64,000 bases of DNA, taken from the IMG/VR virus record IMGVR_UViG_3300009873_000011, positions 6,831 through 70,830 of that record; one strand, given 5' to 3'. The position numbers and the translations under genes were made by a program. Under the pieces are notes generated by a model. That model made no database searches and was not told the origin of the DNA. It saw nothing but the letters and a program-made list of their open reading frames with translations. Position 1 is the stretch's first letter. Each line of letters starts with the position of its first letter. Positions 2,250-7,326 of the stretch are shown piece by piece. The stretch is from a virus (lineage: Duplodnaviria; Caudoviricetes).

Positions 2250-2324
2250 GGGAGAGTAGTTCAACGGCAAGAATACTCGGCTCCAACCCGAGTGATCAGG
2301 GTTCGAATCCTTGCTCTCCCGCCA
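2250..2324 (+). tRNA. trnW: tRNA-Trp(CCA)
   Basis: Cloverleaf; CTCGG-CTCCAAC-CCGAG; encoded CCA. Confidence 0.92.
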
Positions 2325-2510
2325 TTTCAACGGGGCTTTAGCCCTTTGAGACGTTCCACCTGGAGCCTAACGGGCCAGGGACTTTTTGTCCCTCCCAAGT
2401 AAGGGCTGGCAGAAACTGGGGGCAAGGAAAAGGTGCAATGCCTTTCATTCCTCCCCGGTTTTGTAGAGTGTTGGTCCTTTAAACGGGGAACCTTTAGGTC
2501 CCCCGTTTCA
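2325..2510 (+). ncRNA. unassigned structured spacer RNA
   Basis: Several nested hairpins, no ORF, lies between tRNAs. Confidence 0.4.
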
Positions 2511-2511
2511 T

Positions 2512-2601
2512 GGGGAGGTGACGGAATGGTTCAACGTGCCGGTCTGTAAAACCGCAGCCGGGCTTAGTCCCGTGGTGGTTCGAATCCACCCCTCCCCACC
2601 A
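2512..2601 (+). tRNA. trnY: tRNA-Tyr(GTA)
   Basis: Loop CTGTAAA, long variable arm, TTCGAAT, CCA. Confidence 0.92.
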
Positions 2602-2605
2602 TTTC

Positions 2606-2681
2606 GCGGATCTAGTGTTCAACGGCAGCACATCAGTCTTCCAAACTAATAGTACGGGTTCGACTCCCGTGATCCGCTCCA
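2606..2681 (+). tRNA. trnG: tRNA-Gly(TCC)
   Basis: GCGGATC/GATCCGC, U73, loop CTTCCAA. Confidence 0.9.
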
Positions 2682-2683
2682 AC

Positions 2684-2759
2684 CCCTCCATAGTTCAAAT
2701 GGCAAGAATCCTGGCTCTTAACCAGTGAGATCGAGGTTCGACTCCTCGTGGGGGGACCA
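2684..2759 (+). tRNA. trnK: tRNA-Lys(CTT)
   Basis: Loop CTCTTAA; cloverleaf; CCA. Confidence 0.92.
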
Positions 2760-3107
2760 ATGAGCACAAACAGTAGAGCTTATACAAATGCGTATCAGAA
2801 AAGGCATTATGCTGCTAACAAGGCAAAGTATATTGCTAAGGCTGATCGCTGGAAAAAGCGGAAGCGTGGATGGCTAGCTGGTCTAAAAGAGGGAAAACCC
2901 TGTGTGGACTGTGAGATCATATACCCAGCATACGTTTTGGACTGGGACCACGCGCGGGGTGAGAAACGGTTCCTTATAAGTCGCGCTATTGCCGCGGGAA
3001 AATCATACGAAGACATACAAAGCGAGCTGGTCAAGTGTGATTTGGTTTGTGCAAACTGTCATCGTGTACGGACGCATAATCGCCGCACTAGTTTAAAAGT
3101 AGAATAA
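2760..3107 (+). CDS. HNH endonuclease
   Basis: CVDC, LDWDH, CDLVCANCHR; ATG directly after tRNA CCA. Confidence 0.85.
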   Translation: MSTNSRAYTNAYQKRHYAANKAKYIAKADRWKKRKRGWLAGLKEGKPCVDCEIIYPAYVLDWDHARGEKRFLISRAIAAGKSYEDIQSELVKCDLVCANCHRVRTHNRRTSLKVE

Positions 3108-3155
3108 GTCCTTGGTAAGGACTGGGAAACGGAGCGTTACCGTTGTGCGGCTCCA
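3082..3155 (+). tRNA. trnT: atypical tRNA-Thr(GGT)
   Basis: GCCGCAC/GTGCGGC-T-CCA; AGTCC-TTGGTAA-GGACT; AACGG-AGCGTTA-CCGTT. Confidence 0.8.
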
Positions 3156-3210
3156 GAAAGCAGGGTAGGGTTGGATGTCAAAGAACCCGTAAATAGAGCC
3201 CTGCTTCTAC

Positions 3211-3287
3211 ACCCGGGTAGCCCAATTGGCAGAGGCAATAGGTCGAGAGCCTATACAGTGAGGGTTCGAGTCCCTCCCCTGGTACCA
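3211..3287 (+). tRNA. trnL: tRNA-Leu(GAG), short variable arm
   Basis: ATAGG-TCGAGAG-CCTAT; Leu-like D-loop; A73; 5-nt variable region. Confidence 0.75.
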
Positions 3288-3357
3288 CCCAAGCGCGACG
3301 GAGTTGGTGGGTCTAAACCACTCGTGGTAGCGCACCACGTTAAAAAATGCGCTTTAT

Positions 3358-3459
3358 GGGGGTGTGGCGAAACTGGCAAACGCGGAGGGCTTAAACCCCT
3401 CTCAACGCAGCTGGCTCAAAACCAGCCGATTCAGGGTTCGACTCCCTGCACCCCCACCA
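3358..3459 (+). tRNA. trnL: tRNA-Leu(TAA)
   Basis: GAGGG-CTTAAAC-CCCTC; long variable arm; CCA. Confidence 0.9.
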
Positions 3460-3464
3460 TCTAC

Positions 3465-3541
3465 ACCACCCTGACGGAACTGGCATACGTACATGGCTTA
3501 GAACCATGGTTTTGGGGGTTCGACTCCCCCGGGTGGTACCA
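3465..3541 (+). tRNA. trnL: tRNA-Leu(TAG), short variable arm
   Basis: CATGG-CTTAGAA-CCATG; 5-nt variable region; A73. Confidence 0.85.
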
Positions 3542-3543
3542 CT

Positions 3544-3619
3544 GGATCAGGATGCTGTCGGTCATGGCAGGCACGTTGTCAGCGTGTTGAAGAGGGTTCG
3601 ACTCCCTTCTGGTCCGCCA
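3544..3619 (+). tRNA. trnD: tRNA-Asp(GTC)
   Basis: GCACG-TTGTCAG-CGTGT; G73; irregular D-arm. Confidence 0.85.
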
Positions 3620-3632
3620 AGCTGTACAGTTA

Positions 3633-3755
3633 GGCAGAGAGATGCTGGACGAATCCAGCAAAGGAAGAACGGTTTGGGGGTGTAGCCGACGAGCTGCACC
3701 TAGCCCCAGGTGGGAACCCTAGTAATCCTGATGGACTAAAGTAAGTCACTCTGCT
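3633..3755 (+). ncRNA. unassigned multi-helix RNA
   Basis: Closing GCAGAG/CTCTGC helix enclosing 3-4 hairpins. Confidence 0.4.
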
Positions 3756-3762
3756 GGTTTTC

Positions 3763-3838
3763 GGGGGACAAGTGTTACTTGGCCGCACACTAGCTTTGGG
3801 CGCTAGTGGTCAGGGTTCAAATCCCTGGTCCCCCACCA
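3763..3838 (+). tRNA. trnP: tRNA-Pro(TGG)
   Basis: CTAGC-TTTGGGC-GCTAG; CCA. Confidence 0.88.
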
Positions 3839-3844
3839 CCCTTC

Positions 3845-3918
3845 GGGGACATAGGCTAAAGGTAGGCCACTTGGTTCTCAGCCAAACAGTCCGGGTTCGA
3901 GCCCCGGTGTCCCTACCA
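3845..3918 (+). tRNA. trnE: tRNA-Glu(CTC)
   Basis: TTGG-TTCTCAG-CCAA; cloverleaf; CCA. Confidence 0.88.
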
Positions 3919-3923
3919 CTTTC

Positions 3924-3997
3924 GGGTTCCGAGTAGGACGGGAATACGACTGGTTTGCACCCAGTAAGACGGGGTTCGACTCCCCGGGGATCCACCA
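3924..3997 (+). tRNA. trnA: tRNA-Ala(TGC)
   Basis: Loop TTTGCAC; G3.U70 identity pair. Confidence 0.9.
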
Positions 3998-4002
3998 TTT
4001 GA

Positions 4003-4076
4003 TGCGGGGAAACCAGGGGTTACCTTAGGCTCATAACCTACAGGGTGTTGAGGTTCGAATCCTCCCTCCGCTACCA
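4003..4076 (+). tRNA. trnM: tRNA-Met/fMet(CAT)
   Basis: Loop CTCATAA; 1:72 mismatch (initiator-like); degenerate D-arm. Confidence 0.75.
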
Positions 4077-4162
4077 ACTAGGAGAAAGCTCTGTGCATGG
4101 GGCCTCTCCCTCGTACGGGACTCCACGGAGGGTGGGAGCCCTCTGCCCGTCCGGGTTATTTT

Positions 4163-4237
4163 GGACCGCTAGTGAAACGGTTATCACACCTGGTTTACAC
4201 CCAGTTATTCAAGGTTCGAATCCTTGGTGGTCCACCA
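4163..4237 (+). tRNA. trnV: tRNA-Val(TAC)
   Basis: CTGG-TTTACAC-CCAG; CCA. Confidence 0.92.
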
Positions 4238-4242
4238 TCTTT

Positions 4243-4317
4243 GGTGAGCGTGAGGTAATGGAAGCCTAGCAGGTTGTGGCCCTGCCAGAGCGGGTTCGAA
4301 TCCCGTCGCTTACCCCA
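4243..4317 (+). tRNA. trnH: tRNA-His(GTG)
   Basis: Loop TTGTGGC; encoded G-1 opposite C73. Confidence 0.92.
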
Positions 4318-4322
4318 TAACC

Positions 4323-4384
4323 ATGAAGTGCGAGTTAGTCTGTTCTAACTGTCATCGTCTTCGTGGTGAAGTTAGGCGTAAAAT
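4323..4384 (+). pseudogene. HNH endonuclease C-terminal remnant
   Basis: Translates MKCELVCSNCHRLRGEVRRK, matching the KCxLxCxNCH end of the intact HNHs. Confidence 0.7.
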
Positions 4385-4458
4385 TGGGTTGTCGTCCAAC
4401 GGCAAGACATCGCGCTCTGACCGCGAGAATCAAGGTTCAAATCCTTGCAACCCAGCCA
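4385..4458 (+). tRNA. trnQ: tRNA-Gln(CTG)
   Basis: TCGCG-CTCTGAC-CGCGA; U1-A72, G73. Confidence 0.92.
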
Positions 4459-4460
4459 AA

Positions 4461-4536
4461 GCAGAGAGAGCTAGTGTGGTCATAGCACGGGTCTGAAAAG
4501 CCCGCCAACGTGGTTCGATCCCACGTCTCTGCACCA
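4461..4536 (+). tRNA. trnF: tRNA-Phe(GAA)
   Basis: CGGGT-CTGAAAA-GCCCG; CCA. Confidence 0.9.
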
Positions 4537-4539
4537 AAC

Positions 4540-4833
4540 ATGACACGAAATGCTAAGAAGGTTGCGGAGTGGCGGCGCAGAACAAAGGCCAAATTGGTAG
4601 CTTTGGCTGGGGGAAAGTGTCAGCGTTGTGGCTATAGCCGCTGTTTAGCTGCTCTGCAATTTCACCATAGAGACCCCAGCACGAAAGCATTTGCCATAAG
4701 CCGTAAAGGGCATACAAGACGTTTTAGTCTCCTAGTTGAGGAGATACAGAAGTGTGACTTGCTCTGCGCTAATTGTCATGCAGAGGTCGGGTATATTCAG
4801 GAGTCGCCCAATGGTAGGGCAACAAGCTGTTAA
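4540..4833 (+). CDS. HNH endonuclease
   Basis: GGKCQRCG, LQFHHRDP, KCDLLCANCH. Confidence 0.85.
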   Translation: MTRNAKKVAEWRRRTKAKLVALAGGKCQRCGYSRCLAALQFHHRDPSTKAFAISRKGHTRRFSLLVEEIQKCDLLCANCHAEVGYIQESPNGRATSC

Positions 4834-4872
4834 CTTGTCCCGGTGCAGGTTCGAGTCCTGCCTCCTGAGCCA
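4797..4872 (+). tRNA. trnN: tRNA-Asn(GTT)
   Basis: TCAGGAG/CTCCTGA-G-CCA; loop CTGTTAA. Confidence 0.92.
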
Positions 4873-5175
4873 ATGCCCTACAAAGACTACAAGAAACAAA
4901 TGAATCTCTATATGAAGCGGAGATGGAAGCTTCGTCGAGAGATTGCAGTAGCTTTTCTTGGTGGTAAGTGTGTCAACTGTGGGACCGTAGAAGCTCTGGA
5001 ATTTGATCACATTGACCCGACCACTAAAATTAAAACCATTGCTAAGTTTTCTTCTGCTAGCGAACTTAAGTTTTGGGCGGAGGTTAAGAAGTGCCAGTTG
5101 TTGTGTGAAAGTTGCCATAACGAAAAAACTAAGTTAGACTTTTCTCTTGGGACTGTAGCTCAATGGGTAGAGTAG
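4873..5175 (+). CDS. HNH endonuclease
   Basis: GGKCVNCG, LEFDHIDP, KCQLLCESCH. Confidence 0.85.
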   Translation: MPYKDYKKQMNLYMKRRWKLRREIAVAFLGGKCVNCGTVEALEFDHIDPTTKIKTIAKFSSASELKFWAEVKKCQLLCESCHNEKTKLDFSLGTVAQWVE

Positions 5176-5224
5176 CGGCCTTTTAAGCCGAGTGATGAGA
5201 GTTCAAGCCTCTCCGGTCCCACCA
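5149..5224 (+). tRNA. trnK: tRNA-Lys(TTT)
   Basis: CGGC-CTTTTAA-GCCG; CCA. Confidence 0.9.
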
Positions 5225-5226
5225 AT

Positions 5227-5300
5227 GCGAGCGTCGTCTAATGGAAAGACTGGCCCCTGATTAGGGTCAAACGTGGGTTCAACTCCTACCGCTCGTACCA
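5227..5300 (+). tRNA. trnI: tRNA-Ile(GAT)
   Basis: GGCCC-CTGATTA-GGGTC; unusual T at position 37. Confidence 0.8.
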
Positions 5301-5305
5301 CTTCC

Positions 5306-5380
5306 GCTAGCAAGGTCTTGAAGGTAAGACGCTCGCTTCGTAAGCGAGAGGAACGGGTTCGATCCCCGTAGCTAGCTCCA
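5306..5380 (+). tRNA. trnT: tRNA-Thr(CGT)
   Basis: CTCGC-TTCGTAA-GCGAG; canonical T-loop; U73. Confidence 0.88.
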
Positions 5381-5389
5381 GAACACTCC

Positions 5390-5464
5390 GGACCTATGGT
5401 GAAATGGAAATCACTACGCGCTTCGAACGCGTCATTCGGGGTTCGAGTCCTCGTGGGTCCGCCA
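5390..5464 (+). tRNA. trnR: tRNA-Arg(TCG)
   Basis: ACGCG-CTTCGAA-CGCGT; CCA. Confidence 0.9.
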
Positions 5465-5467
5465 AAC

Positions 5468-5537
5468 GCCGGGAGAGCAAGGCTAAGGAGGGTTTTGTAA
5501 ACCTTCCCGCAGGGAGCGTTACCCTGTCCCGGCTCCA
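5468..5537 (+). tRNA. trnT: atypical tRNA-Thr(TGT)
   Basis: GCCGGGA/TCCCGGC-T-CCA; loop TTTGTAA; CAGGG-AGCGTTA-CCCTG; shortened D-arm; 70 nt. Confidence 0.75.
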
Positions 5538-5539
5538 AC

Positions 5540-5616
5540 GGGGGAGTCGTCTAGCGGTCAAGGACACCAGCCTTTCAAGCTGGCTAACGTGGGTTCGAAT
5601 CCCATCTCCCCTACCA
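5540..5616 (+). tRNA. trnE: tRNA-Glu(TTC)
   Basis: CCAGC-CTTTCAA-GCTGG; CCA. Confidence 0.92.
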
Positions 5617-5654
5617 GGTTCGAGTCCTCGACGTCAGATTGTCCTCAGCACAAA

Positions 5655-5744
5655 GGGAGTAGGGAGGAAGGTTTCTCAAGGCGGCTTATACCCGCTTGGC
5701 CAGATTAGCCCTAGAACTTGGTTCGAGTCCAAGTGCTCCCACCA
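5655..5744 (+). tRNA. trnI: tRNA with TAT anticodon (Ile AUA) and long variable arm
   Basis: GGGAGTA/TGCTCCC-A-CCA; GGCGG-CTTATAC-CCGCT; variable hairpin GGC..GCC. Confidence 0.75.
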
Positions 5745-5753
5745 AAACCTTTC

Positions 5754-5829
5754 GGCCCCGTAGTTCAATGGAAAGAACGCCACTCTTCTAAAGTGGATGC
5801 TGGGTGTTCGAGTCGCCCCGGGGTCACCA
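5754..5829 (+). tRNA. trnR: tRNA-Arg(TCT)
   Basis: CCACT-CTTCTAA-AGTGG; CCA. Confidence 0.92.
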
Positions 5830-5834
5830 CTTTT

Positions 5835-5919
5835 GGAGAGCATCCGAACGGTCAGGAAGCAGTTTGCTAAACTGCCACAGGCATAGCCTCAGTGGGTTCG
5901 ACTCCCGCGCTCTCCGCCA
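5835..5919 (+). tRNA. trnS: tRNA-Ser(GCT)
   Basis: GCAGT-TTGCTAA-ACTGC; long variable arm; G73. Confidence 0.92.
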
Positions 5920-6204
5920 ATGCCCACCAAAAACAAACAATTGCTTAGGGAACTTCAACGACGACACCGCCAACAGAAAAAAGCCAAGCTACGCGCGTAT
6001 TTTCAAGAACACCCGTGTATTGACTGCGGGGAAGCCGATTTTAGGTGTCTTGGCTTCGATCACGTCCGCGGCACTAAGTTCAAGAATGTCTCTGTGATGA
6101 TGCGCTCCGGCTATTCTTGGAAAGCGGTTCAAGCTGAGATGGCTAAGTGCGAAGTCCGTTGCGCGAATTGTCACCGTAAGAAAACATACGGCCCTATCGT
6201 CTAA
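5920..6204 (+). CDS. HNH endonuclease
   Basis: HPCIDCG, LGFDHVRG, KCEVRCANCHR. Confidence 0.85.
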   Translation: MPTKNKQLLRELQRRHRQQKKAKLRAYFQEHPCIDCGEADFRCLGFDHVRGTKFKNVSVMMRSGYSWKAVQAEMAKCEVRCANCHRKKTYGPIV

Positions 6205-6264
6205 TGGAAAAGGCGAGGCCCTCCTAAGGCCTAGATCGGGGTTCGACTCCCTGTAGGGCTACCA
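6190..6264 (+). tRNA. trnR: tRNA-Arg(CCT)
   Basis: AGGCC-CTCCTAA-GGCCT; CCA. Confidence 0.9.
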
Positions 6265-6271
6265 CATTTCT

Positions 6272-6360
6272 GGAAGGCACCCGAATGGTTAGGAACTAGT
6301 CTTGAAAACTAGGGTGGGGGAGATCCCCCCTACAGGGTTCGATTCCTTGGCCTTCCGCCA
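6272..6360 (+). tRNA. trnS: tRNA-Ser(TGA)
   Basis: CTAGT-CTTGAAA-ACTAG; long variable arm; G73. Confidence 0.92.
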
Positions 6361-6365
6361 AAAAC

Positions 6366-6716
6366 ATGGAAAAGAAACTTCTCTTCAGTCTTACCGCTAA
6401 GGACTTCGATATTCAGACCTTTTGTACTGGAGGTAACGGTGGACAGCACCGAAACGCCAAGCAAAATGGAGTGCGGATAATTCATCGTGCTTCTGGGGCT
6501 CGGGCAGAACACCGAGATGGACGGGATCAGGCGAAGAACAGGGAAGCAGCGTTCAAGAAACTGGTAGAGACTCCGACCTTTAAGGCATGGCACAAAATGG
6601 AGGTAGCTCGCAGGTGCGGCTTGGTGGCTGAAGCCGAGCGAGCGACAGAGGAAGCAATGCAGCCTAAAAACCTTAAGATAGAGGTTAGGGACGAGCAGGG
6701 GCGGTGGACGAGTTAG
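6366..6716 (+). CDS. GGQ peptidyl-tRNA hydrolase (ArfB/YaeJ-like ribosome rescue factor)
   Basis: TGGNGGQHRN...VRIIH...RDQAKNRE RF-1 domain motifs. Confidence 0.85.
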   Translation: MEKKLLFSLTAKDFDIQTFCTGGNGGQHRNAKQNGVRIIHRASGARAEHRDGRDQAKNREAAFKKLVETPTFKAWHKMEVARRCGLVAEAERATEEAMQPKNLKIEVRDEQGRWTS

Positions 6717-7172
6717 ATGAAATGGAAAACTCTAAGCGGGGAGCAGATCCCCGACATAGCTGAGTTCATAAAGAAGGCATCCGCAGATGGACAGGAGGTC
6801 CACATTGGTACCGACTCCCTTCAGACCGGACGGTACACCCAATTCGTTACAGTGGTTGCTGTGCTCAACCCACCTAAGGGAGGAAGAGCCGCCTACACGA
6901 GGGAGATTGTTCCCCGTATTAGCTCTCTACGAGAACGCTTGCTGCGTGAGGTGTGGAAAAGCGTTGAATTGGGGATGGCAGTGGCGGGGGAGTGTAACGG
7001 GGATTTGACGATCCACGTAGATGCGAACCCCTCAGAGAAGTATATGAGTAGTAAGTATGTGCAGGAGTTAGTCGGCTTGGTAGTTGGCCAGGGCTTTAAA
7101 GCCCTCATCAAGCCGGAGAGCTGGTGCGCCACCCACGCGGCGGACTGGACTGTACGCAACCTTAACAAGTAA
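6717..7172 (+). CDS. YkuK/DUF458-like RNase H-fold protein
   Basis: HIGTDS, FVTVVAV, LLREVWKS, IHVDAN, AAD. Confidence 0.75.
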   Translation: MKWKTLSGEQIPDIAEFIKKASADGQEVHIGTDSLQTGRYTQFVTVVAVLNPPKGGRAAYTREIVPRISSLRERLLREVWKSVELGMAVAGECNGDLTIHVDANPSEKYMSSKYVQELVGLVVGQGFKALIKPESWCATHAADWTVRNLNK

Positions 7173-7247
7173 GAGCGGGTAGGCAAGAGGCTAAGCCCCA
7201 TGGCTGCAACCCATGTATCGAGGGTTCAAATCCCTCCCCGCTCTCCA
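7173..7247 (+). tRNA. trnC: tRNA-Cys(GCA)
   Basis: CATGG-CTGCAAC-CCATG; U73. Confidence 0.92.
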
Positions 7248-7252
7248 TCCAC

Positions 7253-7326
7253 TGGGGATTAGGCTCAAGGCGAGCCGGGAGGCTTTGACCCTCCGGAGCA
7301 GGGTTCGATTCCCTGGTCCCCAGCCA
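7253..7326 (+). tRNA. trnQ: tRNA-Gln(TTG)
   Basis: GGAGG-CTTTGAC-CCTCC; G73. Confidence 0.92.

What the first reader, a model, noticed from the sequence alone, without database searches (positions are those of the whole stretch)
3082..5537. Two tRNA-Thr genes share a non-canonical AGCGTTA T-loop
3082-3155 (GGT) and 5468-5537 (TGT) have perfect 7-bp acceptor stems starting G1-C2, U73 and CCA like the canonical Thr(CGT) at 5306, plus clean anticodon arms. Both replace TTCRANY with the identical loop AGCGTTA on different 5-bp stems (AACGG/CCGTT and CAGGG/CCCTG). T54-A58 is swapped to A54-T58 and C56 is kept. The GGT copy also lacks D-loop GG, and the TGT copy has a shrunken D-arm. The same loop on diverged bodies implies selection for an alternative elbow. 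That could evade elbow-reading host enzymes or nucleases, or serve a non-ribosomal role such as Thr donor or ThrRS decoy (inference).
Basis: partly seen in the sequence, partly recalled or inferred. Interest (0 to 1): 0.82.

Follow-up and report, generated by a model that had tools for sequence, protein, structure and literature searches.

The report
Phage threonine tRNAs with rebuilt elbow
Two threonine tRNA genes in this phage replace four "universal" corner nucleotides with a matched alternative set, found here in at least 75 other viral contigs and as the only cysteine tRNA detected in two Saccharibacteria genome bins, so they are most likely working tRNAs that standard gene finders overlook.

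Summary
Window 3082-3155 (anticodon GGT) and 5468-5537 (TGT) are cloverleaf tRNA-Thr genes with perfect acceptor stems, U73, CCA and the T-loop AGCGTTA. The other 29 or so tRNAs of the array have the usual TTCRANY loop.

The loop is not private to this phage.
87 of 127 matches were tRNA-shaped, with 13 or more anticodons.
- 43 of 126 matches in bacterial genomes were tRNA-shaped.
- In two Saccharibacteria genome bins the only tRNA-Cys detected carries this loop.

Two features covary.
- G55 goes with a D-loop AG instead of GG.
- A54 goes with U58, A60 and a 4-nt variable loop.

A cobalamin riboswitch has a solved A-G-C-R-U T-loop-like turn that pairs with an N-G dinucleotide (PMC6158498). This gives a structural precedent.

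The Thr family (18 sequences) shows strong stem covariation with invariant G1-C72 and C2-G71. 72% of the phage's Thr codons are ACC or ACU.

Best reading: ordinary decoding tRNAs on an alternative elbow. Evasion of host enzymes or nucleases is untested, and a non-ribosomal role is unlikely. The compact D-arm of the TGT copy has no close relatives, so its function is less certain.

This scan has flagged the same rewired elbow before on other DNA. I found no paper describing it.

The parts
3082..3155 (+). tRNA-Thr(GGT) with the alternative elbow. D-loop AAAAGTA at 3095-3101, anticodon at 3114-3116, T-loop AGCGTTA at 3133-3139, then U73 and CCA.
   Evidence: It belongs to a Thr family with covarying stems.
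5468..5537 (+). tRNA-Thr(TGT) with the alternative elbow and a compact D-arm. The D-arm is a 3-bp hairpin with an AAG triloop at 5476-5484. Anticodon at 5496-5498, T-loop AGCGTTA at 5515-5521, then U73 and CCA.
   Evidence: It lies 3 nt after tRNA-Arg and 2 nt before tRNA-Glu. ARAGORN and Rfam both miss it.
5306..5380 (+). Canonical tRNA-Thr(CGT), with GG in the D-loop and T-loop TTCGATC. It serves as the internal comparator.
2250..7326 (+). tRNA array of about 31 genes that holds both variant genes. All other members have canonical T-loops.

Best explanation
Both genes are working elongator tRNA-Thr genes. They are transcribed and processed with the rest of the array, charged by the host ThrRS, and used on the ribosome to read ACC/ACU (GGT copy) and ACA (TGT copy).

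They belong to a widespread class of tRNAs whose elbow is built from a different but matched set of nucleotides.
- The T-loop pentad A54-G55-C56-G57-U58 replaces T54-Psi55-C56-R57-A58.
- A60 replaces Y60.
- The D-loop offers A18-G19 instead of G18-G19.

Inferred geometry, by analogy with the solved A-G-C-R-U turn of a cobalamin riboswitch:
- A54 and U58 close the loop as a trans Watson-Crick pair.
- G55 holds the turn through backbone contacts.
- C56 still pairs with G19, so the flat outer face is kept. RNase P, the ribosome and T-boxes stack on that face.
- A18 intercalates between 57 and 58.

Shown here: sequence anatomy, distribution, covariation, Thr identity elements, codon match, and use as the sole tRNA-Cys detected in two bacterial genome bins.

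Inferred: the 3D geometry, expression, charging and ribosomal use in this phage.
For: 1. Cloverleaf with perfect stems, U33, and 2-3 nt spacers to neighbouring tRNAs.
2. In an 18-sequence Thr family from 16 other viral contigs, 94.7% of cells are paired. There are 115 compensatory cells against 33 in shuffles (0 of 500 shuffles reach this). G1-C72 and C2-G71 are invariant.
3. Bacterial ThrRS determinants are G1-C72, C2-G71, G4-C69, G5-C68, G35 and U36 (PMC9976931). The TGT copy has all of them. The GGT copy has all but 5-68.
4. ACC makes up 54% and ACT 18% of 771 Thr codons in 21 long ORFs. ACA makes up 12%.
5. 87 of 127 viral matches and 43 of 126 bacterial matches to the T-arm pattern are tRNA-shaped.
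6. Covariation in 553 distinct loop-blind cloverleaves. With G55, 105 have no GG in the D-loop and 15 have GG. With T55, 6 have no GG and 425 have GG. A54 pairs with T58 in 86 cases and T54 with T58 in none. A60 occurs in 84 of 86 A54/T58 loops.
7. In two Saccharibacteria genome bins the only tRNA-Cys among 37 and 39 tRNAs has this T-loop and no GG in the D-loop.
8. Structural precedent: the riboswitch J1/3 A-G-C-R-U turn superimposes on a tRNA T-loop at 0.55 A. It has a C-G pair to a partner dinucleotide and an intercalating base (PMC6158498).
Against: - There are no expression, processing, charging or structure data for any member.
- The viral loci were collected by the loop pattern itself and the sequences are related, so the Fisher P values overstate independence.
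- The TGT copy has G8, a 14-nt D region and no close relatives, so it could be impaired.
- The nearest relative found has canonical Thr(CGT) and Thr(TGT), so the variant is not required in this lineage.
- The Saccharibacteria bins are incomplete, so a second tRNA-Cys could have been missed.
Confidence: 0.7

Rival explanations
1. The tRNAs do decode, but the rebuilt elbow is kept because it hides them from host factors that read U54, Psi55, A58 or G18. Such factors include the modification enzymes TrmA, TruB, TrmI and TrmH, and tRNases that cut in the T-loop. On this reading it is a counter-defence or host-independence device.
For: - All four modifiable or recognised residues are replaced together.
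- The class is common in phage tRNA arrays, next to canonical tRNAs (54 loci hold both kinds).
- Which isoacceptor is variant differs between related phages: Thr here, His and Phe in L122. That pattern looks like turnover.
- From my own knowledge, not checked here: T-loop-cutting toxins exist, such as a Burkholderia CdiA-CT that cuts between 54 and 55.
Against: - The same loop is the only tRNA-Cys detected in two cellular genome bins, so it needs no phage-host conflict to exist.
- No defence nuclease aimed at the T-loop of tRNA-Thr is known to me.
- Only 2 of about 31 tRNAs in this phage are variant.
- Nothing was tested experimentally.
Confidence: 0.2
2. The GGT copy works, but the TGT copy is a decaying or crippled gene. 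Its shrunken D-arm prevents a proper L-shape.
For: - G8, a 14-nt D region and a 3-nt D-loop.
- No relative with this architecture and a Thr anticodon in the viral or metagenome scans.
- ACA accounts for only 12% of Thr codons.
Against: - All stems are perfect, CCA is present, and all four acceptor ThrRS determinants are present.
- It sits in the slot where the relative L122 has its Thr(TGT).
- The predicted fold is a cloverleaf at -32.7 kcal/mol, z = -2.4.
- Compact D-arms with AAG or AAGT loops recur in other tRNAs with this T-loop or a G55 T-loop: L018 Cys, L017 Met, L173 and L250 Met, L012 His, L049 Trp.
Confidence: 0.2
3. One reading: the RNAs serve a non-ribosomal role, as a threonine donor for a transferase or as a ThrRS decoy.
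For: Variant-elbow tRNA-Gly species in Staphylococcus are reserved for cell-wall synthesis (PMC4574755, PMC7826273).
Against: - Those staphylococcal tRNAs lose G19 and C56 as well (PMC4574755). Here the G19-C56 pair is kept.
- The class spans 13 or more anticodons, including the sole tRNA-Cys detected in a cell.
- I did not screen the window for an aminoacyl-tRNA transferase gene. None appeared among the 20 ORFs I scanned.
- The codon match points to decoding.
Confidence: 0.05
4. The shared loop is chance, or both genes are pseudogenes.
For: Rfam does not score either gene.
Against: - The shared 11-mer is expected 0.04 times.
- There are tens of tRNA-shaped homologues with compensatory stem changes.
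- Reversed-sequence control for the cloverleaf finder: 17 hits against 723.
Confidence: 0.03

Closest known systems
Canonical bacterial and phage elongator tRNA (Rfam RF00005), elbow as reviewed in PMC4810234
   Same: Cloverleaf, 7-bp acceptor stem, 5-bp T-stem closed by G53-C61, 7-nt T-loop with C56, a D-loop G able to pair with C56, U33, CCA, and Thr identity pairs.
   Different: - T54, Psi55, A58, Y60 and G18 are replaced by A54, G55, U58, A60 and A18.
- The variable loop is 4 nt.
- The Rfam model gives no hit at E<=10.
[quoted passage not shown]
   Same: - Pentad A-G-C-R-U. The wild type has G at the fourth position, giving the same five letters as positions 54-58 here.
- Invariant G at position 2.
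- C at position 3 pairs with a G of a partner dinucleotide.
- The base before that G intercalates between positions 4 and 5.
- The turn superimposes on a tRNA T-loop at 0.55 A.
   Different: It is an internal loop of a riboswitch, not a tRNA hairpin. The intercalating base is mostly U there (A is tolerated) and A here. No tRNA structure with this pentad is known to me.
Non-proteinogenic tRNA-Gly of Staphylococcus (cell-wall pentaglycine donors; PMC4574755, PMC7826273)
   Same: Natural bacterial tRNAs that lack G18 and U55, and that are real, charged molecules.
   Different: They also lack G19 and C56 and are diverted from the ribosome. The class here keeps G19-C56, spans many amino acids and includes a sole tRNA-Cys.
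Eukaryotic initiator tRNA-Met T-loop (A54, A60). Stated from my own knowledge; PMC10602860 turned up in a search but I did not read it.
   Same: A at 54 and A at 60 instead of T54 and Y60.
   Different: The initiator keeps Psi55, (m1)A58 and G18-G19. Here 55, 58 and 18 are changed as well, and the tRNAs are elongators.
D-arm-reduced tRNAs such as animal mitochondrial tRNAs (PMC4394434 turned up in a search; I did not read it)
   Same: The TGT copy has a shortened D-arm with a 3-nt loop.
   Different: Mitochondrial forms usually lose the D-loop/T-loop contact. Here the triloop still offers the A-G dinucleotide that matches the variant T-loop.

Membership tests
tRNA (cloverleaf, RF00005) | Four-arm cloverleaf: 7-bp acceptor stem, 5-bp anticodon stem with a 7-nt loop and U33, 5-bp T-stem with a 7-nt loop, then discriminator and CCA | tested here: met
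   Both genes pass a loop-blind finder with all stems perfect. The minimum-energy folds are cloverleaves.
tRNA (cloverleaf, RF00005) | Score at or above the Rfam gathering threshold of 29 bits | tested here: not met
   No RF00005 match for either gene, even at E<=10. ARAGORN finds only the GGT copy.
tRNA (cloverleaf, RF00005) | Conserved elbow nucleotides G18, G19, T54, Psi55, C56 and A58 | tested here: not met
   Only C56 and a D-loop G (G19) are kept. Positions 18, 54, 55 and 58 read A, A, G and U.
Bacterial tRNA-Thr | ThrRS determinants G1-C72, C2-G71, G4-C69, G5-C68, G35 and U36 (PMC9976931) | tested here: met
   The TGT copy has all of them. The GGT copy has all except 5-68, which is C-G. 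G1-C72 and C2-G71 are invariant in 18 family members. Charging itself was not tested.
Rewired-elbow tRNA class (A18-G55), flagged earlier in this scan | G55 with a D-loop AG instead of GG, and C56 kept | tested here: met
   Both genes fit. In 553 distinct cloverleaves, G55 goes without GG in 105 cases and with GG in 15. T55 goes without GG in 6 cases and with GG in 425.
A54/U58/A60 T-loop subclass (defined here) | A54 with U58 and A60, and usually a 4-nt variable loop | tested here: met
   Both genes fit. A54 with T58 occurs 86 times and T54 with T58 never. A60 occurs in 84 of 86. The variable loop is 4 nt in 55 of 66.
T-loop / lone-pair-triloop motif (PMC6158498 criteria) | Five-nucleotide turn closed by a 1-5 pair, with base 3 free to pair and a partner base intercalating between 4 and 5 | not testable with these tools
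   The sequence is identical to the wild-type riboswitch pentad, and the partner A-G is present. No 3D model could be built here.
Non-ribosomal (cell-wall type) tRNA | Loss of the G19-C56 contact as well as G18 and U55 | tested here: not met
   C56 and a D-loop G are kept in both genes and across the class. Comparison with PMC4574755.
Non-ribosomal (cell-wall type) tRNA | Weak EF-Tu binding, and a partner aminoacyl-tRNA transferase | not tested
The window was not screened for a transferase gene; the 20 ORFs I scanned showed none.

The most novel reading that the evidence does not exclude
The A54-G55-C56-G57-U58 / A18-G19 elbow is a second, modification-independent tRNA architecture. Phages keep it and pass it around because it makes their tRNAs indifferent to host factors that read or modify U54, Psi55, A58 and G18. 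Those factors include TrmA, TruB, TrmI and TrmH, and tRNases that cut the T-loop. On this reading it acts as a host-range or counter-defence device, not a neutral variant.
Probability: 0.2. Interest if true: 0.85.

Novelty: new variant of a known kind. Interest (0 to 1): 0.64.

Why it matters
G18, T54, Psi55 and A58 are taught as near-universal tRNA nucleotides, and tRNA finders rely on them. A matched alternative set seems to work in many phages and appears to be the only tRNA-Cys of a bacterial lineage.

If so, several things follow.
- The tRNA elbow has at least two sequence solutions.
- Phage and candidate-phyla tRNA sets are undercounted. Here Thr(TGT) is missed by both finders, and the cultured phage HTVC008M has an unannotated Gly tRNA.
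- Enzymes said to act on "all tRNAs" (TrmA, TruB) have natural non-substrates.

The case is directly testable with in vitro transcripts and with cultured systems.

Tried and rejected
- Searching the phage collection with the array (megablast), and with each of two Thr genes (blastn), gave no match. No cultured close relative was found.
- Only one moderately close relative turned up through a neighbouring protein: L122, 68% amino-acid identity. Its Thr genes are canonical, so orthologue covariation for these two genes could not be done.
- Pattern scans for relatives of the compact-D TGT copy in viral and metagenome contigs returned three hits, none tRNA-like.
- A loose pattern for canonical tRNA-Cys in the Saccharibacteria genomes gave hundreds of chance hits and was useless. 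I replaced it by fetching every RF00005 hit and typing the anticodons.
- Searches of the paper library for the loop sequence, A54/U58, G55/A18 and phage non-canonical T-loops found no description of this elbow. Absence from this library is not proof of absence.
- I considered and rejected chance, a pseudogene pair, and a cell-wall-type donor tRNA (see the rival explanations).
- The structured spacers at 2325-2511 and 3620-3762 were folded. They are not tRNAs and were not pursued.
Full report
**Context.** The window is most of a 70.8-kb IMG/VR virus record that CheckV rates complete. It is a tailed phage with a DNA polymerase, portal, major head protein and large terminase. A tRNA array spans 2250-7326 on the + strand.
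- ARAGORN lists 26 tRNAs there and Rfam lists 24 at its gathering score.
- My loop-blind cloverleaf scan adds Thr(TGT) at 5468, a TAT tRNA with a long variable arm at 5655-5741 and Ser(GCT) at 5835-5916.
- Rfam adds 3358-3456 (anticodon read by eye as TAA, Leu) and, weakly, 4003-4073 (read by eye as CAT).
- That makes about 31 tRNAs. All encode CCA.

**Observation.**
- Both genes have seven perfect acceptor pairs starting G1-C72 and C2-G71, then U73 and CCA. Both have clean anticodon arms with U33.
- Both have the T-loop AGCGTTA on different stems.
- The GGT copy has the D-loop AAAAGTA.
- The TGT copy has only 14 nt between the acceptor and anticodon stems. These hold a 3-bp hairpin with an AAG triloop.
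- The shared 11-mer is expected 0.04 times by base composition.
- Neither gene reaches E<=10 with the Rfam tRNA model. ARAGORN misses the TGT copy.

**The loop is widespread.**
Of 127 matches, 87 have a perfect T-stem and at least 6 of 7 acceptor pairs.
- With all stems required to be perfect, 82 hits in 75 loci remain. They comprise 49 distinct sequences and 13 anticodons.
- ARAGORN recovered only 21 distinct tRNAs with this loop from the same loci.
- Fifteen other viral contigs carry a Thr(GGT) with this loop, and five carry a tRNA-shaped Thr(TGT) with it.
- In one-genome-per-species bacterial contigs, 43 of 126 matches are tRNA-shaped. They include a tRNA-Cys in 11 Saccharibacteria bins, Verrucomicrobia loci with two hits each, and His tRNAs of other candidate phyla.
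- The cultured Pelagibacter phage HTVC008M has an unannotated Gly(ACC) gene with the same loop between cobS and an S21 gene.

**These are real tRNAs.** An alignment of 18 Thr genes with this loop gives 94.7% paired cells, against 64% in shuffles.
- It has 115 compensatory cells against 33 in shuffles, with 0 of 500 shuffles as high. Sliding the partners by 1-3 columns drops pairing to about 40%.
- G1-C72 and C2-G71 never vary.
- These pairs, with G4-C69, G5-C68, G35 and U36, are the bacterial ThrRS determinants (PMC9976931). The TGT copy has all of them. The GGT copy has all but 5-68.
- The discriminator U73 matches the phage's own canonical Thr(CGT).

**Two covarying modules.** I collected 723 cloverleaves from the viral loci without looking at the loops. 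A reversed-sequence control gave 17. Among 553 distinct ones with C56:
- Module A links position 55 to the D-loop. With T55 the D-loop holds GG in 425 of 431. With G55 it lacks GG in 105 of 120 and holds AG instead.
- Module B links positions 54, 58 and 60. A54 goes with T58 86 times and T54 with T58 never. A60 is present in 84 of 86 A54/T58 loops against 7 of 428 T54/A58 loops. The variable loop is 4 nt in 55 of 66.
- The modules occur separately. ATCGT loops keep GG (20 of 20). TGCRA loops have AG.
- The loop in this window has both modules changed.
- Caveat: the loci were collected by the loop pattern and the sequences are related, so the P values are not true probabilities. The spread over many anticodons argues against a single inherited accident.

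**Why it should fold.** The canonical elbow stacks A58, G18, G57, G19 and C56. [quoted passage not shown]

PMC6158498 describes a natural T-loop-like turn in the env8Cbl-IIa cobalamin riboswitch.
- Its five nucleotides are A, G, C, G (A in the crystal) and U.
- It superimposes on a tRNA T-loop at 0.55 A.
- It is closed by a trans Watson-Crick A-U pair with the U in syn.
- The G at position 2 is invariant in active variants and holds the turn through backbone contacts.
- The C pairs with the G of a partner dinucleotide, and the base before that G intercalates.

This is the same pentad as positions 54-58 here, and the D-loop A-G is the matching partner. The inference is that the variant elbow has nearly the same shape as the canonical one and keeps the outer G19-C56 face.

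**Evidence for ordinary decoding.**
- In two Saccharibacteria bins I fetched every RF00005 hit and typed the anticodons. Among 37 and 39 distinct tRNAs, the only tRNA-Cys has this T-loop and the D-loop GAGAAGTTA. All the other tRNAs keep T54, U55 and A58; the one other exception is a Gly(GCC) with A56 and no D-loop GG.
- In the phage, ACC and ACT make up 72% of Thr codons and ACA 12%. So the two variant genes cover the codons that the canonical Thr(CGT) does not read.
- The TGT copy lies 3 nt after tRNA-Arg and 2 nt before tRNA-Glu. That is the same slot (after Thr(CGT), before Glu(TTC)) where the relative L122 has a canonical Thr(TGT).
- L122 instead has variant His (AGCGTAA) and Phe (GGCGGCA) genes. 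So which isoacceptor is variant changes between related phages.

**The compact D-arm.** No relative of the TGT copy with this architecture was found. However, compact D-arms with AAG or AAGT loops recur in tRNAs with this T-loop or a G55 T-loop: L018 Cys, L017 Met, two Verrucomicrobia Met genes, L012 His and L049 Trp. L049 has the same 7-nt hairpin core. The triloop still offers the A-G pair. I rate its function as probable but less secure than that of the GGT copy.

**Comparison with known systems.**
- The staphylococcal cell-wall tRNA-Gly species also lack G18 and U55. They lose G19 and C56 too and avoid the ribosome (PMC4574755). The present class keeps G19-C56, so it is not of that kind.
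- I found no paper describing this elbow in tRNAs.
- Earlier reports of this scan on other DNA describe the A18-G55 swap. I re-derived it independently.
- This report adds the 54/58/60 module, the riboswitch precedent and the sole-tRNA-Cys test.

**Verdict.** The two genes are most likely functional tRNA-Thr genes on an alternative elbow. They are a new variant of a known kind, and an adaptive evasion role remains open.

Noticed in passing
window 5655-5741: A tRNA-shaped gene with anticodon TAT, a 20-nt variable arm, a canonical T-loop, A73 and CCA. ARAGORN and Rfam both miss it. Its amino-acid identity is unclear (Ile reading AUA, or a type II body).
   Followed up: no
window 2748-3107, also 4510-4833 and 4843-5175: Small HNH-like ORFs lie between the tRNAs. 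The 2748-3107 reading frame runs 26 nt into tRNA-Thr(GGT) and stops in its D-arm.
   Followed up: partly
window 6366-6716 and 6717-7172: An RF-1-domain protein (peptidyl-tRNA hydrolase or ArfB-like, 116 aa) and an RNaseH-like PF04308 protein sit inside the tRNA array. The relative L122 carries a tmRNA gene in its array at 2424-2800.
   Followed up: no
window 2325-2511: A 187-nt spacer between tRNA-Trp and tRNA-Tyr folds very stably (-82.6 kcal/mol, z = -4.5). It includes a hairpin capped by a TGCAATG loop, which resembles a G55-type T-loop. No Rfam family matches.
   Followed up: partly
window 3358-3456 and 4003-4073: Two further tRNAs that ARAGORN misses: a 99-nt gene read by eye as Leu(TAA) (Rfam 56.7 bits), and a gene read by eye as Met(CAT) with an odd D-arm (Rfam 19.4 bits).
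   Followed up: no
L122 1406-1481 and 2209-2281: In the nearest relative found, the variant-elbow tRNAs are His (T-loop AGCGTAA) and Phe (T-loop GGCGGCA, a G54/G58 type), while its Thr genes are canonical.
   Followed up: partly
L284 110-186 and L294 8627-8703 (Saccharibacteria bins): tRNA-Gly(GCC) has T-loop TTAGAGT and D-loop AGTTGTTTA. A56 replaces C56 and the D-loop has no GG, which looks like a covarying swap of the outer elbow pair.
   Followed up: no
L310 601-674 (Pelagibacter phage HTVC008M, record 91140-91213): An unannotated tRNA-Gly(ACC) with the AGCGTTA T-loop lies between cobS and a ribosomal protein S21 gene in a cultured phage genome.
   Followed up: partly
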